Shown here: piece after piece, positions 29,060 through 57,996 of the stretch
Layout: every line of letters begins with the position of its first letter
Position numbering within the stretch: position 1 is the stretch's first letter
From: Minutocellus sp. GHC0000111
Taxonomy: Eukaryota
Direction: 5' to 3'
Assembly: GCA_977018835.1 (NCBI GenBank)
Contig: OZ361259.1
Coordinates: 2,666,001 to 2,730,000, forward strand
DNA: 64,000 nt
The notes under the pieces: generated by a model
The model's database searches: none
The model's input: only the letters and a program-made list of their open reading frames with translations
What the model was told of the DNA's origin: nothing
Translations under genes and position numbers: made by a program

Positions 29060-29472
29060 GGCTGGGTCACACTATGAGCGTTTGTATCGTGGTTTTGGCT
29101 GTTTGGGCACGTGGAGAATGGCGGGGCGAGCAAAAGAGGCTGGATTACTCGGGCCGCCGAAGCTGGTAACGGCCGCCACACCTATCGCTCTGCGTAGCCG
29201 GTGATTGGTCCGCCGCGCAATGTGGCAAGTAGTTTGCTACCGGTTATAACGATCGATACCTTTCGCCGCTCCTACGTTTTGACTGAGAGAATGAGAGTTT
29301 GCATACTTTTGCATTTCGAGTTTGCAGTGAGATTTCGGTCCGTCCGTCGTCTAAACAAGGAATCTCCGGGTTCTATGCGAGACCTTTATTTATGTGGCAT
29401 GCACACAGTTCAGATCTACCGGTACCTAAAGGCTCAACACTACACGTATGGCACCGTGCAATATACAACAGA

Positions 29473-29526
29473 TTCTACTAGATAGAAATCTCCAGCATTT
29501 CTACTAGATCTAGAAATCTCCAGCAT
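29473..29526. repeat. Two-copy tandem repeat, TTCTACTAGAT(CT)AGAAATCTCCAGCAT
   Basis: Copies at 29473-29498 and 29499-29526, differing by a 2-nt insertion. Confidence 0.85.
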
Positions 29527-29547
29527 TCCTCTCCATTTTAAAAAATA

Positions 29548-32283
29548 TCACTGACCCCTTCCCATGGCTTTTCTCACTTCTTTCAATATCTTTTTGTAAT
29601 TCGGATCTTCAAGACCGAACCCAACGAACATAATATGACTCGTCAGCAAGTTTGCCTGAACAAGACCACCAAGGGCTTTTTTACGACCGTTCTCGTAGCT
29701 CCTGTAATCGTCTGAAGTTACAACGATTGACTCTGGCACGGTCACACAACCATGCATCTTCAAAAGCCACCTTTCGGCACCCCTCACGGGACGGTAGGGA
29801 ATGACCGATAGCGACTCGGCAGCTGCTGCCTCATCCCCAACTTCAGCAACACCCTTCTTTTCAGCAACATTTCGGCAAGCAAAGGACTTTTCGATTTGAC
29901 CATCATAGTTTTGCGTAACAATGGATTTCGACGGTAGTGAACCCAGTAGATACATAAGCAGAGAAGGGTACCCTGATCTCTCGATGAGAAATTTGGCGAT
30001 GCGCTCCTTGATGTCGGCTTTGACCCCATCTCGATCTTCACGACTTTTGCACAATACATCGAGCCAGTCAGCGACCAACAACGGATCTACCGATTTGCCC
30101 AGCATTCTCTGTTCTGGGAGACCAGAAGGAGTAAACTGATCCTCAATGGCCAGAAGTAATTGTCGCCAAGAAGGAAGCCCTGCTCCCATTGGGACGCCAG
30201 CACCAATGAAAAGTGATAATCTGCCCTTTGTGCTCAACTTTGCCAGTTCCAATGCTTGGGATTTCATTTCGCTTGTAAATAAGCGAAAGGAAGAGAGAGG
30301 CTCAGCTCTATCAAACTGATCTGGCTCAAAACTCTTGGTCGAAAGTTTATCAAACATGCTCCTGCGGACATTCTGAGCGTGAGAAAAGGTCGCCAGGTCC
30401 GCACAGACTATAACGCAATCTACGTCTTCTTCAGCAGAGACCAACTCTGACAGACACAGCATCATCGATTCGACTACTTGTCCTGTAATATCTCCGGCCT
30501 GACCAAATCCCGTTCCAACAACAGGAAGCGCCAGAAGATAACGCTCTCTATTTGCCCTTGGTCGAGGCTGCTCTCTGCGGAGCTCTTCCAGGCTAACCTG
30601 CACAAATTGCCGAACAGTTTCGAGCAAAGACTGAATGTGATCTTGCTCAGACGGCACGGCCTGCTTCGATCCATTCATAGACGATCGCTCGATCCCAACT
30701 TCTCCAGCGATGATAAAGGGTGCTCGAAATAAGCCTCCAAGGGCGGCCTCAAACTCATCTTTCCGCCAAAACTCTGACCACGGCCAATGCTTCGGCGAAC
30801 AAACGCGGTCGTAAACTTCATAGTGCTTCATCGGAATGGAAGAAAACAAGCCCCTGTTTCTCCCACTTCCGTTCAGCGAACCTCGATCGATATCACTATC
30901 ACTCCCAGCACTATTACTGCGAGATCTCGATCGCCGACGTCGACCACTTGATTTGCCCTGGCCACACCGCACGCTGTCATTGGTCCCTATGAGCTGTTTC
31001 ATCAGCTCAGCATTGCTATCGCGCAATGCCTCGTACCATCGACGCCATATAGTTCCGGCAACTGTACAAACGCCGTCCTTCTTCTTGGTAATACTGGCTG
31101 GACAGAGAAATGCATCGCATGATATGTCACATACACTGCCATTGGCCACAAAAACGTGACCCGGCGGGCGTTGCAATCGACGAAACACTTCGATTTCATG
31201 TGCAAATGGCACTGAGACATCGGTGCCTCCATCAGAATCGCACGCGAGCATACCAACCAAATCGTTTGTTGATAGTGCTGAGTCTTTGAGCAACCCTAAC
31301 CCGTTGATGGCATCAATAGCTGCATCGTTGGTGCTCTCAAGAAGAGCGAATCGTTGAAACAAATCATCATCCGATCGAATATCACAAATTAGCTGGCGCA
31401 GAGCTTCAACTTTTGGGTCAACGGGCAACCTCTGTTTGGCCTTCTCGTCATTGCATTCATCACGTGAGGGAGCGTCATTCGCTGCAGTCTCCCCTCTGTC
31501 TTTTTCATTCTCGGTTGATTCAAAAGAAGTGCTGGACATGGATCCGATCAGCCTCTCCTGGCCTCGTGATGATTCTCTCCGTCTGAGCCCTCTCATTTTG
31601 CGCACACGTCGCTCTGCTCGCTCATCCAGCGTGCCCAATCCCATCTCCCGCCGAAGCATATGCTCTAATCTTCGATAGGCAGAAGTCTCTCTGGCCGATT
31701 TGCTCAGACGCACAGTGTTTCTGCCAGTATTGTCGCCCTCATCTCCTCCTCTTTCATCGTCAATGTCATCCTGCTCATCCGAGCGAATGAGGTCCAAAAC
31801 TGCCCGTTTGAACTCGCGCTCCCCATCACTCAGGAACGAGTCGAATCTGGAATCCAACACATGCCGACTGGCGGCATCGTATGACGACGCGTGAAGGGCG
31901 CACAGGTCGATGAATATCTCCTGGAAGCGTGCTGCGCTCGGCAGATGAGGCGCTGTCGATATCGGAGCCAGATCATCGGCATCGGCAGCATTTGCTCGAG
32001 TCTTCTGTGGCGGATGGGCACATATAAAGTTCACAGAAAGCTCCGGGTTGTCGGTGCACTCGCACTGAGACGAAGAGGGCACCGTCCAGTGGTCTAACGA
32101 CAGCGCGGTGGCCATTCCATCTTGTAACCGTCGCCTCGGTGTTGGTGCATTATTGTGTCTCAGAGACTTTGGCGGCAACGCGGGCGACGTCTGTGTGCCA
32201 GCGCTAGCGCTGCTGCTACCACTTTTGGCAGGGAGGCGACGCTCCACACTTTTGGAAGGAGAACCTGGCACAGTCGGCAGCAT
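29548..32283 (-). CDS. Macro-like domain + SIR2 (SIR2_2-type) fusion protein, intronless
   Basis: Macro-like: GHVFVANGSVCDISCDAFLCP and LLALPVVGTGFGQAG. SIR2: LFIGAGVPMGAGLPSW, IVTQNYD, LLKMHG, IVVTSDDY, FVGFGLEDPN. Confidence 0.8.
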   Translation of the reverse strand: MLPTVPGSPSKSVERRLPAKSGSSSASAGTQTSPALPPKSLRHNNAPTPRRRLQDGMATALSLDHWTVPSSSQCECTDNPELSVNFICAHPPQKTRANAADADDLAPISTAPHLPSAARFQEIFIDLCALHASSYDAASRHVLDSRFDSFLSDGEREFKRAVLDLIRSDEQDDIDDERGGDEGDNTGRNTVRLSKSARETSAYRRLEHMLRREMGLGTLDERAERRVRKMRGLRRRESSRGQERLIGSMSSTSFESTENEKDRGETAANDAPSRDECNDEKAKQRLPVDPKVEALRQLICDIRSDDDLFQRFALLESTNDAAIDAINGLGLLKDSALSTNDLVGMLACDSDGGTDVSVPFAHEIEVFRRLQRPPGHVFVANGSVCDISCDAFLCPASITKKKDGVCTVAGTIWRRWYEALRDSNAELMKQLIGTNDSVRCGQGKSSGRRRRSRSRSNSAGSDSDIDRGSLNGSGRNRGLFSSIPMKHYEVYDRVCSPKHWPWSEFWRKDEFEAALGGLFRAPFIIAGEVGIERSSMNGSKQAVPSEQDHIQSLLETVRQFVQVSLEELRREQPRPRANRERYLLALPVVGTGFGQAGDITGQVVESMMLCLSELVSAEEDVDCVIVCADLATFSHAQNVRRSMFDKLSTKSFEPDQFDRAEPLSSFRLFTSEMKSQALELAKLSTKGRLSLFIGAGVPMGAGLPSWRQLLLAIEDQFTPSGLPEQRMLGKSVDPLLVADWLDVLCKSREDRDGVKADIKERIAKFLIERSGYPSLLMYLLGSLPSKSIVTQNYDGQIEKSFACRNVAEKKGVAEVGDEAAAAESLSVIPYRPVRGAERWLLKMHGCVTVPESIVVTSDDYRSYENGRKKALGGLVQANLLTSHIMFVGFGLEDPNYKKILKEVRKAMGRGQ

Positions 32284-32589: not shown

Positions 32590-34954
32590 TCAGGATGAAG
32601 CCTCGCAAACTTTGTCCTTCATGTTGCATTTGTCGCTGCAACAGTCGCCGTTACCAGTGCAGGACTCTTCCGAAATCGCGCATGAAACACCGACAAAGTA
32701 GATGACATCGTTTTCCTTATAGACAAGGCTCAATGTTTGCCCGATGTCAATTTGAGGGGCGTCAATGCCAGAAGTAGAAGGAGGACCATTGGACCTTTGA
32801 AATCTTCTATCCTTGGCCAGCAGTGATCGTCCAAAGGCCTTGGCCTTGGCTTTCCCTACTGCAGATAGTTCTGGGCGATTCGAATTGTCGTTTTTGGCAT
32901 GTTCCGGCTGAAGGTGCCGATTGTTCTTGTCAGATGGTGTATAACCCCCACGAAGAGTGCTGGTTCTACGGCGGCAGGTGGGATGGTTGTTGTAAGTGTC
33001 GGCCTTGGAGTAATCGACTTGATAACCAGTATCGCTTATTGAAGCAACGGTAACAGTAGACAATGGCATGAAGATATTGCTACCCTCCACATATCCCGTC
33101 ATGAGCTCATGGTCCATAGCTTTGAGGGTCGTCGAACCATCCTCTTCCCAATGTTTCCCGAGAGTTCCAGCTGCCCCGTTGTCCTCGACGGGTGGGCACG
33201 AAGAACAACCCGTGAGTGCTTGCCATTCGCGACATGCATTGGCTCCTGTGAACTCGCTCTTTGTTGCATCGATGAGGCCCATCCTCTCCCAGAGCGACCC
33301 GACACCGATGACATGCCCCAGCTCGTGGAGGATTACACCTTCCCATTGTCCAGATGCCTGCAGGGCATCGACGTGCTCGGTGTCAAATTGCATGTAATCT
33401 GTTACGGGTAGGCCTGGAGTAGTGGATGTAGAAGGCCGGACATAACGCATCGTGGCAAAACCGAGAACACTCGCTTCGGCGATTGGCTTGTTCTTTGCAC
33501 AAACAAATAGATCATCGATGAGTTCAGGTGGGTTTGGGCAAACAAAGTCTGGGTTCGGATCGACAACGTTTTTGGATTCATATGCCGAGAGATCTCCCGT
33601 GACGACTTGCTCCCATCGCGCCCTCGCTTTCCCCAACGCCTTGGTCCAGCCTGGATCCGACCCAGATGGTACCTCTGCATCAATACAGGGAGTAAATCGC
33701 GATGAGTCGGTCTCTGGGCATAGAGGCAGCGTCTCTGTGTGCGAAGGAGAGCGAGGCAGTATTGTAACAATGAAGGGAGTGGTAGAAAAAAGGAAGAGGA
33801 GCGGGCTTCTCGAGTGTTAGCATATATTATACATGTATGCATGTGTACGCCAGAATAAAGTTTAAGATTCGGGTACAAGTGTGCCAATCTTTCGTGACAC
33901 ATGTAAATTACTTACCCTCGGACACATCATAGCCCAACAGCAGTCCGTCAGGATTGTAGGTGCCATAATAAGAGTCGACATTTCCTACTTCAGTCGGCGT
34001 TGCTAGACTGTTGCTGATAGACAACGAGTCGTCGCTGACAAGTTCAGTAAAGGCGACATCAGGACTCGTGTTCGTTCCAGGTCCACCGTATGCATCCACG
34101 CCAGATTCGCAATACAAGTGAATGGGACGTGTTTCGCTTGGACCAATATCGAGAGGAGTCGATAGGGTGATTTCGACAACAGACCCGCCATCGATAGTGG
34201 TATCGCTCAAGGTATTATGAACCTGAAACCAACCATTCGATGACGTGTGAAAGTCTTTCGCGGAGATTCCGACGGCTGACGGCCTGGTGTGGAGTCGACA
34301 TGCCCCTGTGAGCCCACCAGTTGGACGGAATCGAATTTTGTTTATCAAAACACGCTTAAAGTAGGATACAGAGGTGGCATCGAAAAAATATCCCTTGATA
34401 CCAGTGAAGGGCTGTAGTGTCGACTCAGGAGTAGTAAGATATGGGGATGAGAGGGCAGGTAGGGCGACCGGTGATCGAGTCGGTGACGATGTTGCGATAG
34501 GTGCCTTCGTCGGCGCAATTGTGACCACGGGTGCCGTGATGGGAGCGGATGTAGCGATGGGTGCTTTGCTGGGAACTGACGTCTCCGGCGGCGACGATGA
34601 TGCTACGATGCAAGTCACTGACGCCACAGCCTTACAACTGCCCCGCTGGTTCCCTGGTCCTGTATTAGGGGGACAGTCAATATTAGTACTGCAAATGTTG
34701 CCATGATGCGCAAGTTCCGTCTTCGAGTCGCACTGCTTGGGACAGTCGGCAGAGGTTTCGCAGATCGATGAGGAGTCATTAGAGCATGTTCCCGTTGTGG
34801 TGCTGGTTGTATCTGTTGGGGATGTGTTATCTGCTGGGGGTGTGTTCGTTGTTGGTTCGGGAGCCGGTGCCTGGAGAGTCTTCTTGCCCTTGCCTTCAAT
34901 TTTCGACCAAGACCCAGCGAGGAGGAGGGCAAAGAGAAGTTGCTTTGGCTTCAT
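32590..34954 (-). CDS. Secreted leishmanolysin-like (M8) zinc metalloprotease with Cys-rich and Pro/Thr-rich modules; intron 33735..33915
   Basis: Signal MKPKQLLFALLLAG; ILHELGHVIG (HExxH), GTLGKHWEE, HELMTGY, PLSTVTVASISDTGYQVDY. A GTAAGT...CACAG intron (phase 1) joins the two ORFs. Confidence 0.85.
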
Positions 34955-35437
34955 GATTATTCGTCTATTCCTTGCTTTGTCTGTGGATGAGTAGGCGAAA
35001 GATGGAGGTTTGACCGAGAGACTTCCAACCAAAGAGAATATGATGCTCGGACGGATCGTATCGAGCGGGCAAGATGAAGAGAATGAGGTGAATGTTTATG
35101 GCCTTGCGTACGTCGTGTTTATGGCATTCGGCTCGAGGTGGTATAATTTATCGAGCCTCTTCTCCAGTGTCAGTCAAAGAGTGGCATAAGTAAAGATGAG
35201 AAGGGCCAGGTGTCCAAAAGACATTTTCCCGCATGCCCCGATCCCGATACCCAGCCCCAGGCAACAAGCGGCCCCCGGAATACTGCGATCTCTCTATCTA
35301 GATCTACATGTTGTTAACAGCTATCGGTAAATTGATATCCTTACAGCCTGCTAAAAGGTCGGCCAAGCGATAACATCCATACGCTGAATATAAAAAATTA
35401 AGTACACCGTAAAACAAAAAATGCTCTCCCGTCCGCC

Positions 35438-41792: not shown

Positions 41793-44700
41793 ATGGCCCC
41801 ACCCCTCCAGGACGATCCGAACGGCACGGCGGACATCCATAGCGGCGCCAATGATACAGGCGTGGCAGTGAAGCAGCCGTCGGTCGCAGCGGCGTCGAAT
41901 CCGGCACGTCAAGCGTTGGATTCGCACCCATCAACCGACGGAGTTGCTGAGGATCTTTCCACCTCCTCCCCAGAGACGACGACAAACAACAACAACGGCG
42001 GCGTCAACGAGGACGGCAGCCCACGAACATCCAACCTAACGAATGTTATGGAGGCGTTCGATCTGACCTCGGGCGCATCGTCTCCTCGGCCATCGGCGGT
42101 GTCTACTAATACGTCAACCAACAACCCTGAACGAACCAAATCTTTCCGCACGACTGACGAGAATGGTGGTGGATCTATTATTACCACTCCTGACGAGGAT
42201 GGACGGGACGACGACATGTCGATATCTTCCGACTACATCCAACAAGACAACAATAGCAACAACAACCAGAATGCGGTCGAGACCAATCATTCTCTGGCTC
42301 TGGGAATTGCCGCGGCGTTCAATAACAACAAGGACAGCGGCGGCGTGACTGATAGTGGCAGTGGAACGATAGCTGCTACAAGTACCACAGCTACCACGGC
42401 AGCACCAACGAATAATCGATCGATGCTCGGAGCCCGCAAGTACTGCTGCCAGGAGGCTCTGATGAACGACGGACGGTGCAGCTGCAATGGTAGTGGTGGC
42501 AACATCGACAGACAAACTAGTACTGCCGGTGACGTCGACGCACCGGCAATTCAGCATGTAAGGGCCGGGGCCTCGGCTGACGTTTCGGCCACCAACCTTC
42601 TCTTCCCCGCGCCGACGGTCGGCGATGAATCATATGCTCCTTTTACTAGTACTGCAGCACCTGCAGCCGACACGTCAGGCGCCAACGATGCTGCCGATAA
42701 TAATGGTGGAGTGCCAAGTACCTGCGACAATGCGAACTGGCATGTTCTGGGACTTTGCTCTTGCGGACTGCAGCAACAGCCGCAGCCGCCGATGAAAAGG
42801 TCCGAGGCCAGGGCTGGAAACAATGATGGGGAAACAATGATGGGGAAACGGCTGCCACCTTGAATGTCTCTCTGTTACACTCTCCGGCAATTCCTTATTT
42901 CACGGCTGCTGCTGGTACTACCGCTGCAAGTGCTGCTGCTCCAAGTGCTACTTCCAACACCGGTAGTGCCGATGCTGGTGCCGGTGCTGGGCAGACCACG
43001 CGCACGTCATCTCTACTCGGAAGGCTCTTCCGCGGTGGTGGAGGTAGTCTATCGAATGCCGGCAGCAGTGGATCGACCAATGCTGCTCCTGCCCCAGCTG
43101 CCGCCGCCGCTGCTGCTGCTCCTGCCCCTTCGGCTTCGAATTCCAACGTTCATGTCATCCCTAATCCTCCTCCTGCACCTACTCAACAGCAGATGACGCA
43201 ACAGGCGTTGCAGCGATCGCAGATGATGCAGCGGGCGCAGCAGTATCGGCAAAGGCTTGCTGCTGGTGGCGCTCTTGGTGGTGGTACTAGCATGGGCGGC
43301 ATCGGTCAAATCATTCCGCGCAGGGCCCGAGGGTGGTTTGGTGGACGACATGGTGGTATTGGAGTTGACACTCTTTACTACCAAGCTCCAGACACCAAGT
43401 CGTTGCCTCCGGGACTTGGTCTCAACGATACCATCGATGCTGAGAATAGTATTTGTCGATCCATTTCACCACAAGAGATTGAATCGATTCTACTGACCGG
43501 CTGTGAGGAGACGTGCAAGATTTGCCTCGAGCCCATTGTCGATCCCAAAGATATTTGCAGTGACTTTTCTCCGCCGAACTCGCGCGTCGTTTGTCTTCGG
43601 AGATGCGCCCACCGCTTCCACCTTGCGTGTATCCGTCACTGAAATGTCCCGAGTGCCAAACAGCGCTCCTATCCGAGCGAGATATTGGCGACATGGTGTC
43701 AGGAAACAGTCCATCGGGTACCATGGATATTTCTTCTTGTTCATCCGTCGAAGGGCACAGTGATTGTGGCGGCAAAATGATATCTTACTCTATCCATGCT
43801 GGCGTGCAGAAGCAGTACCATCCTCACCCAGGCCAACACCACGGCGGTGCCTACCGGCAGGCCTACCTTCCCGACAACGAAGAGGGCCGCCAGCTGTTGA
43901 GCCGTCTCAAGTATGCCTTCCTTCACGGCCTCACCTTTCAGGTGGGCAAATCGCTCACCAATGGCGCAGACAACCAAGTGACGTGGGCGTCGATACATCA
44001 CAAGACGTCGCCGCGTGGTGGACCACACGGATTTCCTGATCCATCCTACTTGCAAAATTGCAATGGGGAACTCGACACCGCCGGTGTTCCTACCGCTCAA
44101 GTCTGTGCGGGATATCTCGCATCACGAAGGGCCCCAGACTTTATTCAGCGAGCGGTGCAGTCTGATCCTCTCGATCTCGGGGAAAGCCAAGTCGTTCTCT
44201 TTCACCTTATTCACGCTGAACACTGCTCCCACAATCCAACCCAGAACCATGGTGCGCAGTGTTCTATCGTCAATTGCTGTGCCGAGTTCAAAGAGTTGCG
44301 TCAGCATGTCGATGCCTGTGCGGACCCTGCCTGTACTTTCAATTACTGTCAAAAGGCAAAGAAAGTTCTCTCGCACTACCGGCTCGCTCAGTGCTCCGCT
44401 GGTTGTACCGAGTGTGGAACAGTTCGAGCCGCAGTCCAAGCCGCCACAACCCTCGGAGATGACATCGGGTCGCTCCCTGCATACAATTTAGACCAAGTCA
44501 TAAGGACGGCGTCCCACGCCAGAAGAAAATACGACGTTTCCTTCTTTTATCAAGAACCAGCATCGGATCTCTTTCTGTCGGAGTCCTTTCCTTATGATAC
44601 GCTGGTGAGACAAATCGGTCTAAACGCTCTTCTAACCTTTATACAAAGAACGGGCGTTGAGGGTTCTTCTGTGGTTCTCAATCCACATCTCACGAAAACC

Positions 44701-45459
44701 TGGTCAAAATACAAAGCCTTTGTCGAAGAGGGGGAGAAATGTGCCAGTATTGCGGACAAGCACTTTACGGTCAGGATCGTATTTCACGGCACCGCTTCTC
44801 GAAATATTGATTCAATTCTTGAGCATGGACTAGATCAACATCGTAGAGCTCGACAAGCATTTGGCCAGGGGGAATATTTTGCTTCTAATGCTGCCATGTC
44901 GTCAATTTACTGTCAAGGCGGGAATCGAATGCTCGTTTTTGCTATCATTTGTTGCGACACGGACGTCCGATCTCAGCAGAAGGACCAGGGTATCGTCGTG
45001 GTGAGTGAATCCAACCGCCAGCTACCCCTTGGCACCCTGACGTTTACGAATTTGATCATGGAAGGCCGCATGCAGGGCGATGCTTTCCAGTTCCAGCTCA
45101 ATAAATTGAAAGAAGAGCAGCAGAAGTTGGAGAAGATTGCAGGGGAGGCGAAGGAAAAGATCGTTCGTTTCATTCTTCGAGGTCAGTATGATGTTGCCTC
45201 TGAATATTACGAAAAGGCTCGCAACCGCAATGGTGGCGATCCTCCGTCGTCCTGGGCTGAGGAAGTCGCCTGCTACGTGAGAGATCACATTCGAGACTCA
45301 GAGATGGTGGAGATTTACTTTCCCCGCTTGCCTGCCAGGCCTACGCTCGCGGAGGATGTAGACATGCTCAATGTTGACAAGTGTGAAAATGAAGCCAGAG
45401 AAGCGAAACGAAAGGCCGATGAATATCTGAAGCAAAATAAGAAAAAGACAGCTGGGTAA
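41793..45459 (+). CDS. Deltex-like RING-H2 + DTC ubiquitin ligase fused to a TAZ-like Zn finger and a PARP-like ADP-ribosyltransferase domain; two frameshifts as assembled
   Basis: RING: CKIC...CAHRFHLAC / CPEC. DTC: GNSPSGTM, GVQKQYHPHPG, RQAYLPDNEEG, AFLHGLTFQVG, VTWASIHHKT..GG.HGFPDPSYL...EL. TAZ-like His/Cys cluster. ART: FHGT, FGQGEYFA, SSIY, IVVV...QLP. Confidence 0.82.
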
Positions 45460-47241: not shown

Positions 47242-47463
47242 AGTGCTCAAGCAAGGCGCCGTGTGCTGCAAATAATTGACGGCCGGCCAAAAATGTGAGG
47301 CACTAAAAAACGTTGAGGATTTTGTAAACACTAATCCCACCATGTCGGCATGTCGGCTGATCGGCAGGCCGCTGGCCGCTGGGCATGGGGACCAGTATGG
47401 AGCAAGGAGCGGCGGCCCGGCCCTACATGTACAAAGAGCAAGAGCAGGAGCACTGCAGCAGCA

Positions 47464-50400
47464 ATGGCGGAGAATAATGAGGGTTCAAGCACCGAAGAGC
47501 CAACCTCGGCGGCAACAGAGGCGGCGCCGACTGGCACCAAGCCAAGAGGTTCTGCCAAGGCGGTGCGAGTGTGGACGGGGTCGCCAACAGTGGGAGGGGA
47601 CGACGCTGACAACGTTGCCAGCCTACATCGTGCATCGTCTCTGCCCGTTGATTCGACGGTAGCGGCTGGCACTTCATCGTCATCCAGCCTTTTCTATCGC
47701 AATCGAGATATTACCAAGTCGAGCAGATCGATACGCCATGATCTAGAGAATCTGATGGAAGACGAGGAAGACAAAGAAGACGAACTTGAATCTGCCCATG
47801 TTGTAAGGTCAAGGTCGGCACCAACCTTTGAACTTGAGAATCCATCAATAAATGCATCAGCAGGGCCGCCCAGGGTTGGACACCAGCAACAGTCGCCAGT
47901 ACATGAAGCTCAACCTCTACTTGGTGGGTCTGTCACTTCGCATCCGAGATCGAGTTGGGAATCGCGGGATGAGGATCAGCGACTGGCCCGAATTGCTGCG
48001 GCATTTCTCAATGATTATGAGGCAGGACAGGCGCCAACTTTGCCGCCGGATTTGGTGAACATTACAGACCATCACCTTCATTTGCATGCGATCCGCTTTT
48101 CGAAAGTGTGGCGTGTCATTATGGTGTTCGCTACTGGATGTCTCTTCGTTGGTAGCTGCTTTGAAGGAAGCGATGAAGACGAGGCTTGGGAAACGTATGA
48201 CAGGGCATATCTAGCTGAGAGGATACGGCGAAAGCAGACGATTCTTTTATTTTGTACGGTCATACCTGTTCTGGTGTTCGCGCTTGACATATCGATGATG
48301 GCAGTTTTATTCTCCAGAAGAGGGCACACTGAAAGATTAGACACTTTGCTTGGGGCTGAATTGTTGCAGGATGGGAATGGCCAAGCACCCTCTCGGTCAA
48401 CTAAGAACGCAGAGAGGCCCAAGAAGGCGCGAACGTCGCGATCGTTTTGGTGGGCCATGCCAGTTTTACTCTTTCTCGCAGTGCTCTCGGTGGAAACATT
48501 GGTTGTGACACTATCTGGAGCTGTTCTGCAACGTCGTATCTGGTCCAGCCTTGCCAAGCCGATAGTTCTCTTCTATGTGAGCTCCAGAACTCGAAACGCT
48601 CTTGATGCTCTTAATCGAGTCATTCGCGTGGTTTTGAGAGTAATATTGATTGAATTATTTCTCATCTTCACATTTGGGTCGGTCGCAGTCCAGTTGTTCG
48701 GAGATGAATTCGAGTCCTTTGAGGGTCTCCCTGTTTCTTTTTTATCCATGTTTCAATTGTCGACCACCGTTGTAAATCCATCGCTCTGGATGCCAGTGGT
48801 TGCCCAGTATGGCCGTTCATCGTCCATCTTTTTCGTCATATTTCTCGTCACGAGGTAAGCAAAGAAATTGCGACGTCCTTTCGCTTCGAACCCATATTGT
48901 TTGAATTATTACTTTTCTAATTCGAATGTCTCTCGTTCTCTATTATTTTCTTCGTGCACAAAGCGTGTTCTACTTGCATTCGCTTGTGCTCTCTGTCGTC
49001 TTTCAAAGCTACATGGATGGCATGGCAGCAATTCGTGAGCATTCTGCGATAGACAGGGAAAAGAATTTGCAGCTAGCTTACGAAGCGTTGAGTGATCTCG
49101 ACACGGATGAGGAGTTCAGGTCCACGTCGGCGCCCACACACCGCATTCGTGGTGCCCTTGGCCTCCTGAGAGAGCACTACACCGTCACCAAGATGAATGT
49201 ACTGATGCAGACAATAGATCCATTCAATTCGGGTACGATTGATTACAATACTTTCCGCCTGAAAATTCCCAAGGCTCTCAATCTGTCTGTGCACTCAGTC
49301 CGGCCACGGAACTCGCTATCTCATGTTCTTGAGATACTTGCGATCGCGGTTGCATTGGTCAATTTGCTCTACGTTTTCCTGGCATCTTCATCTTATTCAT
49401 CATGGTGGTGGGATGCAACTGTCGTTCCGGTCGGCTTCTTTATCACACTATTGTGTTTGGTTGAATTAGTGACTCGGCTCATTGTTGTGAAAATCTTGCG
49501 TGCGGCAGATGTCGAGACTGGCAAGCCGAATTCCACTTTCGATGGACTTGCATTTGTGGCTGCCATGACCTCGATGGTTGGCCTGGCATTACATGGCACT
49601 ACAGAGTACAAGCGTGCTTTGGATTGTGTCTTCACGGGACGAGCAATTGACATGATCCGGTGTCTGAGATAAAATGAAGAGGCAAGAGGGATCGGTAAGT
49701 GTACCAAGCAAAGCATTGTTACCTATGGTACCTATGTACATCTATCCGCCAACATCTTTCTCTTCAAATTAAGGCATCCCATCCTTTCCCTGCGCCGTGT
49801 AGTGAAGAGAAGTTCGGAGGTTATCCCTGCCCTTTTGGGTCCCATCTTACTCATTATCAGCGCCATGCATATATTTACTTATCTGGGCATGGCCATATGG
49901 GGAGGCAAGGTCGTATGTGGAGCTAATCCTGATCTCACCCCATATTACGACCTGAATAATTTCAACACGTACTTATCAGGAGTCATCACTCTGTTTCAAG
50001 TACTCGTCGTCAACGATTGGCATGCAATCGCATTGGTGTTCATCCTTCCTGCTGGCCACACAGTTACAAATGTGCTTGTCTATCCATTCTTCATCGTCGC
50101 TAATCTCGCATTAACATCGGTACTATTGAATGTCATGATAGCTTTCTTCGTCAATGCGTTTGTCACGAAGGCCACCGACAAACGCATGCTAATCGGAGCT
50201 GATCAAGGTGGCGCCAGGAAATATACTTCTGGCCTTGATAATTCCATACTGTCAAAAGATACAGGTGCTGAAATCAGCTCGGAAGCAGACGCTACCACTG
50301 TCGACCAATCCATTACCACCATTACGATCAGTGAACGCCAAGGCTTTGATAACATACTCAAAACAATTGCCAGAGAAGGTAGCGAGGACGGCGAAGAGAG

Positions 50401-50773
50401 TGCTGCTAGAATAGGTTCTCAAATGTTACAAGCATTCGAAGAGCTTTCGTTGTCTGTTGACAATTCCAGTACAAAGTTCGGTTATCTCGTGTCTTGTCAT
50501 AAGTCGAAGCATCGATATGGTAACCAAAGACTGATGAATCACATTCAGTCCTTCATGGAAGCACGGACCTTGCACCAGATTATTGGCGAAATGTCGATGG
50601 AATTAGCCAATTTGGCAGAAAGTGGTGGTGCTACAAGCTACACTCTTGAACGCGTGTTTCGAGCCCCCGGCGAAAACAAGGCCCTCGAGATCCGAGCGTC
50701 ATTATTGGCTGGATCTACTGTGAGTCTCTTCGTTTCGAGATTAGCTGATGCTCCACCCGATGGAGTCAAATAG
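47464..50773 (+). CDS. Two-pore channel (TPC)-like cation channel; introns 48855..48963 and 49695..49802; in-frame TAA at 49670
   Basis: Pore I SFLSMFQLSTTVVNPSLW; EF-hand-like IDPFNSGTIDYNTF; pore II LNNFNTYLSGVITLFQVLVVNDW; S6 LLNVMIAFFV. Splicing keeps the frame through CLR*NEEARGIVKRS. Confidence 0.8.
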
Positions 50774-50942
50774 ATAGACTTAAAGTGACTGCTACGTAGC
50801 TTCGTGGCGTCTCTAGCAACGTAGCTACGGATAGTCATGGTATCCAAAATATGTTAAGGAATCTACAATAAAAATCCAGCGAATACACGCAAGAAATATC
50901 TCTTTTCGACCGCCCTCTCAGAGTAGCAACGTTCGCATTATT

Positions 50943-53900
50943 CTACCTTCCTCTTGCTCTCTCCCGGCTGAGCTCAAACAAAGTGGTGAGAATTTCGGAG
51001 ACCTGCTTTACGTCCGCGAGGACATCTTGTTGAACAGTATCAAGCTCGAATTTGGCATCGGCCATCTCTTTCCGGTCTTTCTTCAATGATTGCTTTAGCT
51101 CGTTGCGAAGACCCTTTAGCTCCGACTTGAGATTTACCACCTCTGCCCTGACGCCGGCAGCGATGTCTGCTCGGGAGACGACAGCTCGGCTTTGCGCGAA
51201 GATGAATTCTCTAATCTGAGGTGGCCACAACCATCCCGCTGTCACCAAGCCAAGTACAAGCCACAATGGGATTATGATGAAACCGGCAAGCAATCGAAGG
51301 GATGAATAAATGAAGAAATCAATGCTCAGAGGCGATACATCATTATCCTTGAAGAGATTTGGGTCGAAAAATGACATTATGGAAGCCCAACCACTCCGAA
51401 ACGGTGTCGGTGGGCCTTGCTTATTTTCATCCGTTGCTGTTGTTTGGTCTTCTCTGGTCCCTCCACGCCAGGTCCCGGCCGTTTCGCCATCGCCCGAAGG
51501 GCCGTGAACGGAAAGAGATGGTATCGGACGTGCCGATCCACAGGTTATGATTAGATTGACTGCGTTTACAATGGCGTCCATCTCAGCCACGAAATCCAAT
51601 CTATTTGACAAAAAGACCACAGCAGCTCGTTCGTTCTTGATGACACCATAACTATCCGTAACAATGGCAATCAGAACGTTTGCCAGTAAAATGACGACAA
51701 GAAATGCGTAGAGGACGTAAAGAATTTGGGCGACCAAGCTTTCCGAGTACCACCTCGTTGCGTCGCCGATTTCGCCAAGAATCCTGAGTAGGTTGTAAAT
51801 GGCGAGGATGGAAAGTTATGATACACAAACGTGAGAACTCAATTAGTCTGGAATGCCGAAGACCCACTTCACATAATACATTGATGCAGCACTCACATGG
51901 TATATGTTTTCAGAAGAGACCTTCCGAAAGTACAGTGGGGATTATCGTATTCCCAATGGTCCATCAGCTCGCCCGATGTCGAGTTCCTTGGACAAAGGGG
52001 TGTGAGAGCGAAGACATAATAAAAGCTCTGCGCAAAAGCGAACAGAATGACTCCCAAACTGACCATAAATGCAATCAGACGCCTCACGACAAATGTAACA
52101 CCGCCGACAAATACAGCAAAATCGACGAGGGTGCTCTTGAGATAGATAATGACGGCAACCCACAACACACCCTGAGTTGCAGCGACTCCACCCCGGAAAA
52201 ATTCGTCGGATATTCCCAAATTTGGAGCGGTCATGAGGACTCCATAGTAAAAGACGAGGAAGATGACCATCATGTCGGGCCAGTTGGAAACGTCGAACAG
52301 CCATTTCTTAAAGGTTCCCAGAGCCGTCATGGAAATCACCTGGGCCATTTCGCGCGCAAAAAAATACGCACCCCCGACAAATTGTAGATACAACGGTATT
52401 TCTGATGGGATGGCAACCCCATCGAAGCGGTGGTCAATATGCCACTTTGAATTGAGAGAAAATACCACGATCAGAAGCAGATGCATATAGCCATCCATCA
52501 AAAGGATGGAAGTGGGAAATCGTTGGACGATGCGATCATTCAACACTGTGTGAAGATGACGAGAGGACACGGCCTTGTCGCGTAGCCATTCCGGCAGGGA
52601 TTGAACCGCGCTTAAGAAGTCTGCCGTCGGAGTCGGTTTGGCTTCCAAGTAGTGATCCAAACAATCGGCGGCATTTTTCCGAGCGTCGGGTTTGTCATGT
52701 CCCAGCTTGGCGATCATGGCCAGGAGCGAAATGGGCAAATACCCGGACTCGTCGCTCATATTGATGACCTCTCGGGGACAATGTTCCAGGAGGTATTTGA
52801 CGACGCTCGGACTAGCACTTCGATGAGCATTCACCATGGCCAAGTGCAACGCCGTTCTTCCCTTACGCTCTCTAGCAGAAGTGGATTGTGGTTCTTGGTT
52901 GATCAGGACCTCGAGAACTGCCGTTGTAGTGCCATAGGCGCATGCTGTAGGGATGAAACGAAGACCCAGAATGATGTTAAAAGAATGTGGAGATAAACAC
53001 TCTGCTGCATCATCCATTTCTACCTGAGGATCGACCATATAGACAATACATGTATGTACAACCTCACAACTTACCGTAGTGCAACGGGATCATCCCATTC
53101 TCGTCGGGCAATCTCGCGGCGCCAGTATCTCCCAACAAGGCCACGATCTCTGCCATCTCATCTTCACCGTTGTCGTCGCTTTTGCTCTCATCCCCAAACA
53201 ATACCCGGTTGCTACCAATTATCCCACCTTTACTGGCAGCACCTCCTCTACCTCCCTTCCCCCCCTTGACCTGACTTCGAAAGAAGGCAAAATGAAGCGG
53301 GGTTCGAAGCCGCTTGTCCTGCGTCACCTTGCCACCTGGATATGCCCCGCAGAGCAGCTCCAGTACTTCCAACGAGGCACCATTGGCGACACTGTGATGG
53401 AGTGGGATCCAGCCATTGCTGTCCTGCCAGCTGGCCACCTCCTTCTCGCATGCGATGATCCCCTCCTCCACATCGACGGGTGGGTCGGGCAGCTTGCACA
53501 GCAGATGCAGCGCCGTGGTGCTGAACTGGCCCAGATGCGTCGCGGCCACACTCCGTTCCTCATCGGCCGGGTGGGCCGTCAGCCACTCTCGCAGCGCCTC
53601 CCACGTCTGCTCGAGCTGCGATTCCCTCACCGATCGCTGCTTGGGCGTCATCTCCGCCATGGGCGGATCGTCCGGCCCGGGCAAAGCCGATTCGCAGATG
53701 GCATACAATCGCGTCACGTCGCTGGCCCCCACATCGTCCGTCCGAATTGTGCTGGCGCCCAGCGTCGCGACGCCGTACGTTTGGTCGTCGTCGTTGTAGG
53801 CGTGATGCTCGTACGTTGCCTCGACGTCGGCGGCGGCCGCCAGGTCCTCGGCCTGGGAGATCCTCCGGACCGACGCCGCGCGGTGGCCGCCCAGTTGCCG

Positions 53901-54083
53901 AGAGCTGGGTGATCCGGTGCCGTTCGCAGGCCTATCTGCGCCGGCGCCATTTGCTGCTGCTTGACGACGGCTGCTCATCTGCTGCTGTCTACCAGCGGGA
54001 CCGCCGCGACCTCGACCGCCGACGCCGCCACCTCGGCCACGACCTCGGCCACCGCGACCACCAGAGCCGCGGGGGGAAGACAT
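50943..54083 (-). CDS. Ankyrin-repeat + 6TM TRP-like channel, paralogue A; introns 52945..53074 and 51784..51896
   Basis: Ankyrin-like TALHLLC, WIPLHH, RTPLHF, MIPLHY|ACAYG, GRTALHLA; TM region; pore KTYTM|ILGEIG; S6 VILLANVLIAIVTDSY; C-terminal coiled coil. Confidence 0.85.
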
Positions 54084-54346
54084 GGTTCGATCAACAGGAG
54101 TGAGGCCGAGGAGTTGAGTTGCTTCGAGTGGGGGGTTGCTTGCTTTGCTTGGGTTGGGATCTGACCCCGTTCATCTGTTCCCGCGGAAATATTTATGCCC
54201 TCTTAGTTGCGCGCCCGCGCTCTGCTCTGTGAAGATACGGAACCGAACCGACACATCATGTGTCATGGTTGGTTCTGCACCCAGTTAAGTGTTGACTCGA
54301 CTCCCTGAACCACAAGACGACTTTATCCAAGGCAATAATAACTGCA

Positions 54347-57300
54347 ATGCCAGCCAGTAACGGCGAAGGCGCCGGAGCCGGAGCACCGGCGGCGGCGGCC
54401 CCGAAGCGACATCGAGCTCGCCTACCGCCGGCCCGCAGCTCAGCCGGACGGGGTAATGGTAGCAGCGGCAATGGCAGCAGTGGCCGATCTCCGGCTGGAA
54501 GAGGACGTGGTACTGCTGGGGCTGGGGCTGGTCGAAGGCCCGCTGGCACCGGTGCCAATGGAGGTGGCGGTAGCCAGAGCCGGTCGACGGGCACAGGCAG
54601 CGCCAGCGGGAGCAGCTCTACGCTCGGTTCGGCGGCCCTCAGAGAGAGTTCGGTCGGCGGCACAAGCGGTACCAGTGCCGGCACAAACAGCAGCCCTAGG
54701 ACGCAGCAGACCAACAGATCTCCCAACAGACAGCAGTCGCAGACGAGACGTCCTGGTCCCGGCCGAGGCGGTGGTCGAGGCAACGGAGGAGGTGGAAGAT
54801 CGAGCGTCCGAGGAGGTGGTGGGGGCAGAGGAGGACGGTCGTCTCCCACTCGTGGTCCGTCGCGTCGTCCTGGTCCTCCTGGGAGTGGACCGTCAGTCCG
54901 AGGCAGTGGCAATCGCAGCATGCATGGCAGTAGAAGTAGTCACGGCCACAATGGCTCCGTTTCGGCCCTTCGCGACCCTATCGCTCTGTACCGATTGCTG
55001 GAATCTGGGTTGGACAAGGGCAAGGGCACTGCTGGCGGTAATGGAGGAGGAGGAGGGAATCAACAGCAAGGCGAGGCGGAACAGGAGGCCAAGCCCATGA
55101 CTCGATTGGAGGAGATCCGGAGGGCCGAACGACTGGACAAAATGTACGATGCCGTTCGAGAGTGGCTCCGTTCCAACAGCAGCAATCCGGCCAACATGCC
55201 GTCGTCGCCAACAGCTGCAGCACCACCTCCGCCCGCCGATCCAGCTCTCAAGCGTGCGGCAGCAACGCATTTGGGAATGTTTAGTATGACTCCCCTGCAT
55301 TTGCTGTGCAAACTCCCCAACCCACCCGTGGATATTGTCGCTGATCTCATCGAGACGGCTCCCGAAACTCTGCAGTGGGCCGAATCGTCGGGCTGGTTGC
55401 CAATACACCTTGCCGTGGCATCCGGTGCGAGTCTGGCTGTGCTGGAAATGCTCTGTGATGCCCATCCCGATGGCAAGATTGCACAGGATCGACGACTTCG
55501 AACACCGCTCCATTTTGGTAAGTCCGAGTTGGGGAGAGAATTTGGTGCACAAATAAATACAGTACTGCCCGCTCTACAGACGTTTCTTACCCGAAATTTA
55601 TTTTCCTCCCTGCTCTTGTATGTGTTCCATTTTCTATCTATTCTCTGTATCATTCCTCAGCCTTCTTTAGGGACGACGTCCGAGCATCAAAGGAAGGTAT
55701 GAACAAGGCTCTTCTTGGCAGTGACTTTGATGTTACTGAACGCGGGTACGATTCCGGCTGGGACGACCTCGACGTTGGGACTGGCGATGATGCCGACATT
55801 GTTGACCTACTGAGCGATTCCGGTGCGGCTTTGCAACACGACGAGAATGGGATGCTCCCGCTGCATTATGCAGCTGCCTACGGTACGAGCACAGGTGTGC
55901 TTGGTGCTCTCTTTGAAGCCTATCCCAACTCGATCCGGGCACGAGAGCGAAATGGACGAACCCCACTCCATTTGGCCATGGTGAATGCCCATCGACCAGC
56001 ATCTCCGGCGGTCATTCGATTTCTCCTTAGTATTCCTGATACCGATGTGGTCAATATGAAAGACAAGGAAGGAAACCTGCCACTTCATTTGTTGGCCAAT
56101 GTCGCCGCTCGAATTCGGTCGGATCAAAAAGAAGTATGTGCTAATGCTACCGAGTCTCTCAAGCTCTACCTGGCCGCTGGACCAAAGGCATCATCTGAAT
56201 TCCTGACCGCTGTGCAACGATTGCCGAGCTGGCTTCAAGATCATGCCGTTGTTTCGCCTCACGTGCAGAGCGTGCTGAACGTCAAAATCGCCAAGAGATT
56301 TCCCACGTCTATTCTCCTCCTTGATGGTTATGTCCTAATTATGCTGATCGTATGCTTTGAGATTGCGTCGAATTACACCATCGATGTGAGATTTCAGGAG
56401 GAGGGAGATCCTCCAGTGGAGCCATTCCGTGGTCCAGGTTTCGCTTACGCAGTCATTGCAGGGGGTGGATATTTCTTTGTGCGGGAAGTGATCCAAGCGT
56501 TTGCCTTATTGAACATTGGCAGCTTCAAGAGCTGGATTTTTAGTCCATCGAATTGGCTCGACCTTTTCATGATGGCCCTAGTCCTCACAATGGGAGCGGC
56601 AATGATCAACATTGAGATTATGTCACGAGAAATGTTCCGGAATTTGGCAGCTCTTGCCAAGGGCGTGTTATGGGTTTCCTTCATTCTCTACGGTAAGTGC
56701 ATGTTGCACCACGCACTTATCATCGCCTCGTTGTTTTATTCCTTGTTATTGTTGATGGCAAGCGCTCTCACATACATGACTACACGGCTAATCCAATCCA
56801 CCCTTTTTCGTATTTCATTGTTAATCTTCCATTCTCCTCTCTCAATCATTTCAATTCTTCATTTTCACAGTCAAGAGCACCCTCGTAGATTTCGCAGTCT
56901 TGGTCGGTGGTGTGCAATATGTTTTGCGACGCCTCGCTGCATTCTTAGTGGTCTTGAGTTGTATCTTGGTCGCTTTTGGATTCATGTTTTACTACGTCTT
57001 CCTCGCAACGCCGTTTTGCGTCAAAGACGAGGAGCAAGGCTTTGCCTTCCCGCATTGTACGATCAGCGATAGCTTACTCCGAGTTTACACCATGATGATG
57101 GGCGAAGTTGACGACACGGTCTACCAGACAACTGTATCGCAAGCGTTGTATATCCTCTACGCCTTCCTCGTTATCATTCTGCTATCGAATGTGCTTATTG
57201 CCATCGTTACAGATAGTTATGGAATCATCAAGAACGAACGTGCGGCAATGGTGTTTTGGAGCAATCGACTGAACTTCATCGCTGAGGTTGATGCAATTGC

Positions 57301-57996
57301 CACTGTCCGAAAGCAACTACTTGGCGAAGGATATCTCTGCCCCCGTCCCTGGTCAACAGATGTCGATGCCACCGGAGACGAGGTCGAAGGCAAGAGCAAA
57401 AGCAAGAAGGTATTCCGCGACCTGTGGAATACCCTGACCGGTCTCTTCAAGGAAAACCCATACGAATACATGGATGTTTCACCAGGTTCATTCGACTTTT
57501 GGTGCTATCTCCTCCTTCGGATCGTTGCCATTTTCATCATTCCTGTATGGCTTATCTTGGGCTTGGTAACGGCGGGATGGCTGTGGCCCCCACAGGTTAG
57601 AGAACTCTTGCTTTGCCAGACCAATGTTAGAATATCTAGAGCTGACATTGCAATCAAAGCAAAGAAAGAAATAAGCAAGCTTCGTCATGAATTGCGGAAT
57701 CTCAAAAGAGAAGTATTACACGAGAAGAAGGTAAGCGAAATGCCCGTTATGCACTGCCCTATAATTTCGTTTCATGTTATCCTGTCTCTCCATCTGAATT
57801 GCGAATCAACTACAAACTAATTGGGCGTGTCTATTGTTATTTGAAATGTGGTAACACCCAGTTTGAAAAGAGAGAAGTAATCAAAATGAAATCCGACGTC
57901 GAGGAGTTGCAGTCCTCCGTGCTCTCCGACTTGACACAAATCCGAGAGATTATGACAACACTCCTCGAGCTTGAAAGAGAGAAGGCTCAGAGGTAG
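54347..57996 (+). CDS. Ankyrin-repeat + 6TM TRP-like channel, paralogue B; introns 55518..55660, 56693..56870 and 57731..57861
   Basis: Same motifs as paralogue A (TPLHLLCKLP, QDRRLRTPLHF, MLPLHYAAAYG, KSTLVDFAV, YTMMMGEV, LSNVLIAIVTDSYG, VTAGWLWPPQ). All three GT-AG introns splice in frame. Confidence 0.85.

What the first reader, a model, noticed from the sequence alone, without database searches (positions are those of the whole stretch)
29548..32283. Bacterial-style Macro + SIR2 fusion, a candidate ADP-ribose-sensing NADase effector in a eukaryotic alga
Seen in sequence: an intronless 911-aa ORF with a Macro-like domain (GHVFVANGSVCDISCDAFLCP ... LALPVVGTGFGQAG) followed by a SIR2 domain with GAG..LPSW, TQNYD, KMHG and FVGFG.ED. 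There is no CxxC...CxxC zinc module after the HG motif. Established: Zn-less SIR2_2-type domains are the NAD+-degrading effectors of prokaryotic defence systems (ThsA, DSR, short Argonautes), and Macro domains bind ADP-ribose derivatives (type II Thoeris uses one as its sensor). Inference: a possibly horizontally acquired sensor-effector rather than a canonical sirtuin deacylase. Caveats: GAGVP replaces the usual GAGxS, and the protein ends soon after the FVGFG motif, so it may be truncated or degenerate.
Basis: partly seen in the sequence, partly recalled or inferred. Interest (0 to 1): 0.8.

Follow-up and report, generated by a model that had tools for sequence, protein, structure and literature searches.

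The report
Circularly permuted Macro-SIR2 protein of diatoms
This algal gene encodes a relative of bacterial NAD-destroying defence enzymes fused to a macrodomain; it only looks cut short, because the end of the enzyme has been moved to the front of the protein, where it is predicted to complete the fold of what is likely a regulated NAD-cleaving enzyme (activity untested).

Summary
The 911-aa ORF (29548-32283, minus strand), its Macro fold and its zinc-less SIR2_2 domain are confirmed. A Macro+SIR2 fusion in eukaryotes is already described (SIRim clade C, 83 species), so that part is not new.

What is new: the protein is not truncated but circularly permuted. Bacterial relatives run Macro-SIR2-tail; here the tail (last two SIR2 strands plus helices) sits at residues 57-216, ahead of the Macro domain. 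A bacteria-only tail profile scores 35 bits against at most 9.6 in 1000 shuffles. Of 221 homologues, 34 are permuted and 148 are not. The 22 permuted rows tested form one clade (95/89) nested among unpermuted ones; named members are three diatoms and Triparma. Whole-unit tandem duplicates exist, a plausible route.

Catalytic Asn and His are kept, but the Macro adenine Asp is Ser, and this subclade lost two phosphate-loop serines. Bacterial copies have no TIR or fixed partner. A regulated NADase is likely (about 0.5); immune role and ligand are untested. Transfer, if any, is ancient.

The parts
29548..32283 (-). Single ORF, 911 aa, order tail-Macro-SIR2 (circularly permuted SIRim/Macro protein)
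32116..32283 (-). Residues 1-56, low-complexity leader, poorly conserved; several homologues are called from the Met at residue 57
31636..32115 (-). Residues 57-216, block T: homologue of the bacterial C-terminal block. Predicted strands at 58-61 and 84-86 (inferred to be SIR2 strands 6 and 7), long helix 114-140 and a helical tail
   Evidence: HMM E 2e-8, 35.3 bits vs at most 9.6 in 1000 shuffles; all 55 bacterial tails cover the sampled positions 60, 120-160, 200 and 210; model pLDDT 85-93 over the first 40 modelled residues
31162..31635 (-). Residues 217-374, linker joining the former C-terminus to the former N-terminus; partly disordered, partly a lineage-specific helical bundle; 38-252 aa among permuted proteins
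30352..31161 (-). Residues 375-644, Macro domain with insertions; diphosphate-loop motif at 586-594 kept; Ser383 in place of the usual adenine Asp (mapping inferred)
29551..30276 (-). Residues 670-911, SIR2_2/SIRim core (strands 1-5 and the following helix); Asn792 and His844 match the ThsA catalytic Asn and His; GAGVP and GFG replace GAGxS and GFS; no Zn module
29392..31249 (.). Segment skipped in a joint seen in two runs of unrecorded type (X10, X13): apparent deletion allele removing Macro, SIR2 and the stop codon
   Evidence: side 28 letters, under the tool's caution limit of 30; flanks unique in the window

Best explanation
The gene encodes a circularly permuted Macro+SIR2 (SIRim) protein whose N-terminal block is the tail of its bacterial relatives and is predicted to complete the enzyme's fold, making it likely a normally silent NAD-cleaving enzyme that would be switched by a ligand or modified protein held by the Macro domain. 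Shown: domain content, the permuted order, conserved catalytic Asn and His, and one clade for the permuted form. Inferred: the N-terminal strands dock as strands 6 and 7 of the SIR2 sheet; the long helix of the moved block couples Macro to SIR2; the permutation arose once, by tandem duplication of the whole unit and loss of the outer parts, before diatoms and bolidophytes split. Assumed by analogy with ThsA and FAM118B and untested: NADase activity, activation by oligomerisation, and a role in stress or antiviral signalling. Odds: permutation about 0.95; catalytically competent NADase about 0.6; Macro-ligand control about 0.4.
For: Permutation: a tail profile built from 30 bacterial-type proteins only hits residues 112-211 (E 2e-8; 35.3 bits vs at most 9.6 in 1000 shuffles), and bacterial tails align from residue 57 to about 216. 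34 of 221 proteins have the permuted order, 148 the bacterial order, 5 a full tandem duplicate, 34 other or partial. From the FVGF motif to the C-terminus there are 26 aa here and a median of 152 in 141 unpermuted proteins. The tail begins inside the SIR2 domain: in 3 of 28 proteins scanned the SIR2_2 match runs over its first strand. The model aligns to ThsA residues 3-217 only (Z 15.7, rmsd 2.7 A, 209 aligned), and ThsA's seven-stranded domain is 1-283 (PMC7272460 passages). AF2: pLDDT 84.1, pTM 0.89, two confident N-terminal strands. Block T with Macro+SIR2 as separate chains: weak support, 0.44 against best control 0.00; runs share at least 25% of contacts; partner pLDDT 33-40. The mark was reached by 51 of 78 solved and 2 of 108 mismatched pairs, but at 0.60 or under by only 5 of those 78 and by all 4 passing mismatches of 180; halves of one protein can pass by likeness to solved SIR2 structures. 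Tree: 22 of 22 permuted rows in one clade, 95/89, nested under several starred nodes of unpermuted rows. Catalysis: Asn and His kept in 33 of 34 permuted proteins, the miss being a fragment. Identity to P0005 is 216/242 in SIR2, 233/266 in Macro, 123/154 in block T and 90/155 in the linker. ADP-ribose link: an NrtR/SPFH/kinase-like gene cluster lies next to the bacterial gene in 7 of 80 loci, in three arrangements.
Against: No activity or ligand data. The inferred adenine-binding Asp is Ser in 33 of 34 permuted proteins, against Asp in 107 of 148 unpermuted. This protein and its four closest full-length relatives replace both phosphate-loop serines; Pro at the GAGxS site occurs in 0 of 148 unpermuted proteins. 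Bacterial copies show no conserved partner, no TIR neighbour and little defence context. I could not read model coordinates, so the strand docking was not seen directly. The known tandem duplicates are not sisters of the permuted clade, so they show that the route is open, not that it was taken. An apparent deletion allele exists.
Confidence: 0.55

Rival explanations
1. Same permuted fold, but in this subclade the enzyme is weak or dead and the protein acts as an NAD/ADP-ribose-binding scaffold, or is on its way out.
For: GAGVP and GFG in this protein and P0002-P0005 only; Macro Asp-to-Ser; apparent deletion allele at about a third of the depth in two runs; frequent SIRim losses reported.
Against: Asn and His intact; 89% identity in SIR2 against 58% in the linker versus P0005; neither serine is invariant in unpermuted proteins (14 and about 15 of 148 have Gly); RNA-library contigs cover much of the ORF.
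Confidence: 0.15
2. A self-contained writer/eraser: SIR2 transfers ADP-ribose to a protein or nucleic acid and the Macro domain removes or reads it, as in sirtuin-Macro pairs.
For: Stand-alone gene with no signal-making partner; sirtuin-Macro two-gene systems work this way (PMC9503650 passages).
Against: Closest solved relatives are NADases (ThsA, DSR2, KomC), not macrodomain-linked sirtuins; by inspection no glycine-rich catalytic loop follows the second Macro strand.
Confidence: 0.13
3. A housekeeping NAD/ADP-ribose turnover enzyme with no immune role.
For: Single gene among ordinary neighbours in the window and in most bacterial loci; NrtR cluster beside it in some loci; orthologues kept across diatoms.
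Against: The SIRim subfamily as a whole is enriched near defence genes; a few bacterial neighbours are conflict-system genes (REase-ARP, ARPP, RAMA, AlbA_2).
Confidence: 0.14
4. A truncated gene, a gene with a missed 3' exon, or a canonical sirtuin deacylase.
For: The ORF ends 26 aa after FVGF, and a GT lies just before the stop.
Against: The missing block is at the N-terminus; four close relatives end at the same site; one RNA contig crosses the stop unspliced, though by only about 20 letters; no Zn module and no PF02146 hit.
Confidence: 0.03

Closest known systems
Eukaryotic SIRim clade C (SIRim + Macro; Bonhomme et al., bioRxiv 10.1101/2024.09.18.613514)
   Same: Zinc-less SIR2_2 fused to a Macro domain in eukaryotes; ThsA-like SIR2; the paper names Chaetoceros diatoms among SIRim carriers; two of my permuted homologues come from its source database EukProt.
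   Different: The preprint's main text does not mention a permuted protein (its 4 'permut' hits concern alignment settings). No clade C protein is tested in the section read. Figures and Table S4 were not seen.
Bacterial Macro-SIR2-tail proteins ('SIR2 family protein' of Planctomycetota, Myxococcota, Actinomycetota, Vulcanimicrobiota)
   Same: All three blocks are homologous; profile-profile probability 100, E 1.4e-84 over Macro+SIR2.
   Different: Order Macro-SIR2-tail, about 500-570 aa; adenine Asp mostly kept; no function found in my searches (and others).
ThsA of type I Thoeris (also DSR2, KomC)
   Same: Best sequence and structure matches; catalytic Asn and His; no zinc module.
   Different: Sensor is Macro, not SLOG, and lies before SIR2; no TIR partner found; SIR2 strands 6-7 come from the other end of the chain.
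ThsA of type II Thoeris
   Same: Macro domain attached to an effector.
   Different: There the effector is a pair of membrane helices, and the Macro Asp binds the adenine of His-ADPR; here the effector is SIR2 and that position is inferred to be Ser.
FAM118B/SIRal
   Same: Eukaryotic SIR2_2 with weak, oligomer-dependent NADase activity; family profile hit E 9e-7.
   Different: Separate clade (A); no Macro domain; not permuted.

Membership tests
SIRim / SIR2_2 subfamily | SIR2_2 domain closer to antiphage sirtuins than to class I-IV sirtuins | tested here: met
   PF13289 E 1e-19, the only Pfam hit; family profile: ThsA E 6e-32, SIRT7 E 0.047
SIRim / SIR2_2 subfamily | No four-cysteine zinc module | tested here: met
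   No CxxC after residue 685
SIRim / SIR2_2 subfamily | Catalytic Asn and His (ThsA N112, H152) | tested here: met
   Asn792 and His844
SIRim / SIR2_2 subfamily | Seven-stranded central sheet | tested here: inconclusive
   C-terminal part matches ThsA 3-217 only; two further strands are predicted at the N-terminus; docking has weak support only
SIRim / SIR2_2 subfamily | NADase activity | not testable with these tools
   needs an assay
Eukaryotic SIRim clade C | SIRim fused to Macro in a eukaryote | tested here: met
   definition
Eukaryotic SIRim clade C | Falls in the published clade | not testable with these tools
   member list (Table S4) not visible; membership likely but inferred
Macrodomain | Macro fold | tested here: met
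   YmdB Z 13.8, rmsd 2.6 A, 159 of 173 aligned; macroH2A1.1 E 1.2e-5 by family profile
Macrodomain | Glycine-rich diphosphate-binding loop | tested here: met
   residues 586-594, conserved in alignments A1 and A2; role from PMC5413906 passages
Macrodomain | Adenine-binding Asp of the GDIT-type motif | tested here: not met
   Ser in 33 of 34 permuted, Asp in 107 of 148 unpermuted; position mapped by motif, not by superposition
Class I-IV sirtuin deacylase | Zinc-binding module and PF02146 match | tested here: not met
Thoeris type I ThsA | C-terminal SLOG/STALD sensor and adjacent TIR gene | tested here: not met
   no STALD hit; no TIR family among 122 of 139 immediate bacterial neighbours scanned; ThsB_TIR in 1 of 5 host genomes
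Macrodomain-linked sirtuin (SirTM) / Zn-Macro | Class M sirtuin with zinc-dependent macrodomain | tested here: inconclusive
   not among the best 60 PDB sequence hits or best 50 structure hits; SirTM treated as a separate subfamily in PMC12700824 passages; no direct comparison run

The most novel reading that the evidence does not exclude
Diatoms and bolidophytes carry a naturally circularly permuted antiphage-type sirtuin whose catalytic sheet is completed by a tethered N-terminal piece. That piece acts as a switch, in cis or swapped between subunits of an oligomer, coupling a retuned Macro domain (reading a non-standard ADP-ribose signal) to NAD depletion in antiviral cell death.
Probability: 0.15. 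Interest if true: 0.82.

Novelty: new variant of a known kind. Interest (0 to 1): 0.5.

Why it matters
A natural circular permutation through a sirtuin Rossmann fold did not turn up in my literature searches. It explains why these diatom proteins look truncated to domain scans and to readers, marks a single event shared by diatoms and Triparma, and gives a ready split point for testing how SIRim NADases are switched on. If the protein proves to be an ADP-ribose-gated NADase, it is a concrete handle on innate immunity in diatoms, which the SIRim preprint names as an open question. The bacterial Macro-SIR2 family, a stand-alone gene with no tested function that I could find, is an easy first test.

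Tried and rejected
No whole genome is held for the window, so copy number, paralogues and TIR genes in the host were not examined.

First AF2 model with 18 sequences: pLDDT 61.5, SIR2 part unreliable; its Foldseek run gave only weak Macro hits, none at E up to 0.001. Replaced by the 136-row model.

Pfam Macro finds none of 30 bacterial relatives and none of 28 further proteins. VIA and Foldseek gave only in-order alignments, so they could not show the N-terminal strands in the SIR2 sheet; the wide VIA search never ran.

Taxonomy of the unpermuted sister rows and tandem duplicates could not be had: no organism names, timed out, one search gave no named eukaryote, and one search gave bacterial clusters only. 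I therefore do not claim they are eukaryotic.

My first neighbour ORF calling picked shadow frames and was redone; it still missed the gene itself in 2 of 80 loci. The GAGxS tally for unpermuted proteins was contaminated by the Macro loop and is replaced; the His tally for unpermuted proteins (138 of 148) is noisier than (145 of 148).

GC3 of the ORF (0.49) is the lowest of six ORFs compared (others 0.52-0.69) but is not taken as a sign of recent transfer. A splice donor just before the stop was considered and not supported. The 12 single-base differences in other runs (4 synonymous, 8 not) are too few, and from mixed strains, to measure selection. Stretches of the ORF without RNA cover say nothing. 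Earlier scan findings: none. PMC7050489 passages gave nothing usable.

Full report
OBSERVATION. Pfam finds only SIR2_2 (787-909, E 1e-19, model positions 2-111 of 141). PADLOC and PDB sequence searches rank ThsA first. There is no CxxC in the SIR2 part. The window is eukaryotic: kinesin, RING, ion channel, PARP and DUF6824 genes, and a GT-AG intron of the next gene is spliced out in RNA contigs. That it is a diatom is inferred from the named homologues; the species was not sought. RNA-library contigs from two studies cover much of the ORF with no joint inside it. One crosses the stop unspliced, but by only about 20 letters, under the tool's 31-letter rule; run X3 repeats the same sample. Contigs show neither strand nor level.

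THE PROTEIN IS PERMUTED, NOT TRUNCATED. Homologue searches returned algal-type proteins of 660-950 aa and bacterial-type proteins of about 500-570 aa. The latter continue some 150 residues past the FVGF motif (median 152 in 141 proteins), whereas this protein ends 26 residues after it, as do its four closest relatives. I cut an alignment of 30 bacterial-type proteins into Macro (M), SIR2 core (S) and tail (T) profiles. The T profile hits this protein at residues 112-211 (E 2e-8), scoring 35.3 bits against a best of 9.6 in 1000 shuffles of residues 1-370. When 55 bacterial tails were aligned as separate rows they fell on residues 57 to about 216, motif for motif: first strand, conserved Trp, second strand, the long helix, and the terminal helices. 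Over all 221 proteins then held, the orders were M-S-T 148, T-M-S 34, full tandem M-S-T-M-S-T 5, and 34 partial or other. In GTDB loci, 76 of the 78 genes found were M-S-T and 2 partial.

THE CUT LIES INSIDE THE SIR2 FOLD. ThsA's SIR2 domain is residues 1-283 with a seven-stranded sheet (PMC7272460, passages). My AF2 model (residues 50-911, 136 rows, pLDDT 84.1, pTM 0.89) aligns to ThsA residues 3-217 only (Z 15.7, rmsd 2.7 A, 209 aligned) and to KomC up to residue 212-227 of 264-277. In 3 of 28 proteins scanned the Pfam SIR2_2 match runs on over the first strand of T. The model gives block T two confident strands (58-61, 84-86) and a long helix (114-140). I infer that they are strands 6 and 7 and the closing helix. 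I could not read coordinates, and the aligners gave only in-order matches, so the docking was not seen directly. Folding T and M+S as two chains gave weak support: 0.44 against best control 0.00, contacts agreeing by at least 25%, partner pLDDT 33-40, alignments not used. The mark was reached by 51 of 78 solved and 2 of 108 mismatched pairs, but at 0.60 or under by only 5 of the 78 and by all 4 passing mismatches of 180; halves of one protein may pass by likeness to solved structures. The Macro fold is firm: YmdB Z 13.8, rmsd 2.6 A, 159 aligned; macroH2A1.1 E 1.2e-5 by family profile.

HISTORY. On the collinear M+S part, the 22 permuted rows included (of 34; near-copies, a fragment and some further rows left out) form one clade: 95/89 in the careful 46-row tree, SH-aLRT 92 in the quick 73-row tree. 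A 278-row FastTree of S alone put only T-less fragments among them (support 0.83). The clade nests under several starred nodes of unpermuted rows, with the 10 named bacterial rows as outgroup, so the permuted order is derived. Named permuted members are Seminavis robusta, Amphora coffeaeformis, Cylindrotheca closterium and Triparma columacea, which suggests an origin before the diatom-bolidophyte split (inference). The unpermuted sister rows have no organism names, so neither a donor nor the time of any transfer is shown. Whole-unit tandem duplicates occur in at least three separate places of the trees. Keeping the middle T-M-S of such a duplicate would give the permuted order, but none is its sister.

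KNOWN CONTEXT. The SIRim preprint (10.1101/2024.09.18.613514; section 8 read whole, other passages; figures and supplements not seen) describes clade C: 83 eukaryotic species, typically SIRim fused to Macro, branching with ThsA-like proteins, and it names Chaetoceros diatoms as SIRim carriers. This protein very likely belongs there, so the fusion is known; Table S4 and Fig. 4c could settle membership and might already show the permuted order. Searches for a permuted sirtuin or a Macro-SIR2 family listed no paper on it by title. I did not read the single 'circular permutation' passages in the listed papers, and the journal version of the preprint (recalled) was not seen. Other papers were seen as passages only: PMC12700824, PMC9503650, PMC5413906, PMC7050489, 10.1101/2024.01.03.573942, 10.64898/2025.12.03.692087 (no Macro-SIR2 effector in the passages).

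FUNCTION: FOR. Asn792 and His844 match the residues needed for ThsA's NADase; they are kept in 33 of 34 permuted proteins. Against P0005, identity is 216/242 in S, 233/266 in M, 123/154 in T and 90/155 in the linker, so all three blocks are under constraint. In bacteria the gene sits beside a cluster of NrtR, SPFH and a kinase-like gene in 7 of 80 loci, in three arrangements whose proteins are 40-47% identical between groups. NrtR was found in 5 of those 7; the NAD-kinase-like label is recalled and has no Pfam hit. NrtR senses ADP-ribose. Single loci adjoin REase-ARP, ARPP, RAMA or AlbA_2 genes.

FUNCTION: AGAINST. The bacterial gene has no conserved partner (only 42 loci have 3 kb on both sides). 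No TIR family appeared among 122 of 139 immediate neighbours scanned. PADLOC hit 5 of 53 selected neighbours, one a plain kinase. ThsB_TIR was found in 1 of 5 host genomes. The position that by motif matches the adenine-binding Asp of macrodomains is Ser in 33 of 34 permuted proteins but Asp in 107 of 148 unpermuted. This protein and P0002-P0005 have Pro for the GAGxS serine (0 of 148 unpermuted) and Gly for the GFS serine (about 15 of 148); that these serines contact the NAD phosphates is recalled. Two runs show an apparent deletion allele removing M and S.

VERDICT. A real, apparently transcribed gene; a new structural variant (circular permutation through the catalytic domain) of a described eukaryotic SIRim-Macro group. 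Most likely a regulated NADase; ligand and biological role are open. Interest 0.5.

Noticed in passing
window 29392-31249: Runs X10 and X13 hold a joint 29391 to 31250 (1858 nt skipped; depth 36.9 vs 81.3 and 65 vs 125), with contig breaks at both ends: an apparent deletion allele removing Macro, SIR2 and the stop. Short side is 28 letters, under the tool's caution limit; flanks unique in the window.
   Followed up: partly
window 42827-45456 (+): RING-H2 piece followed by Deltex C-terminal, TAZ zinc finger and PARP catalytic domains, probably one spliced gene: an ADP-ribose/ubiquitin fusion about 11 kb from the finding. No link shown.
   Followed up: no
P0082, P0083, P0084, P0090, P0107, P0159: Tandem duplicates of the whole Macro-SIR2-tail unit; 5 of 6 second copies lack the catalytic His, suggesting active-plus-pseudoenzyme pairs. 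Organisms unknown.
   Followed up: partly
L019, L040, L042, L046, L065, L068, L078: NrtR, SPFH/Band 7 and kinase-like gene cluster directly beside the bacterial Macro-SIR2 gene in three arrangements; in L065 and L068 co-directional with gaps of 10-30 bases.
   Followed up: partly
window 32590-35095 (-): Upstream neighbour, probably one spliced gene, with an HELGH motif suggesting a zinc metalloprotease and a Cys/Pro/Thr-rich secreted-looking N-terminal part; no Pfam hit.
   Followed up: no
window 47335-57817: Cluster of ion-transport and ankyrin-repeat ORFs, resembling channel genes.
   Followed up: no
window 29460-29535: Short imperfect direct repeat of about 30 bases just past the stop codon, seen by eye.
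   Followed up: no
ESM Atlas, row 8: A separate bacterial cluster (85 members, 580 aa) carries SIR2_2 with a Pfam-detectable Macro domain (99% of members): a second Macro-SIR2 family not examined here.
   Followed up: no
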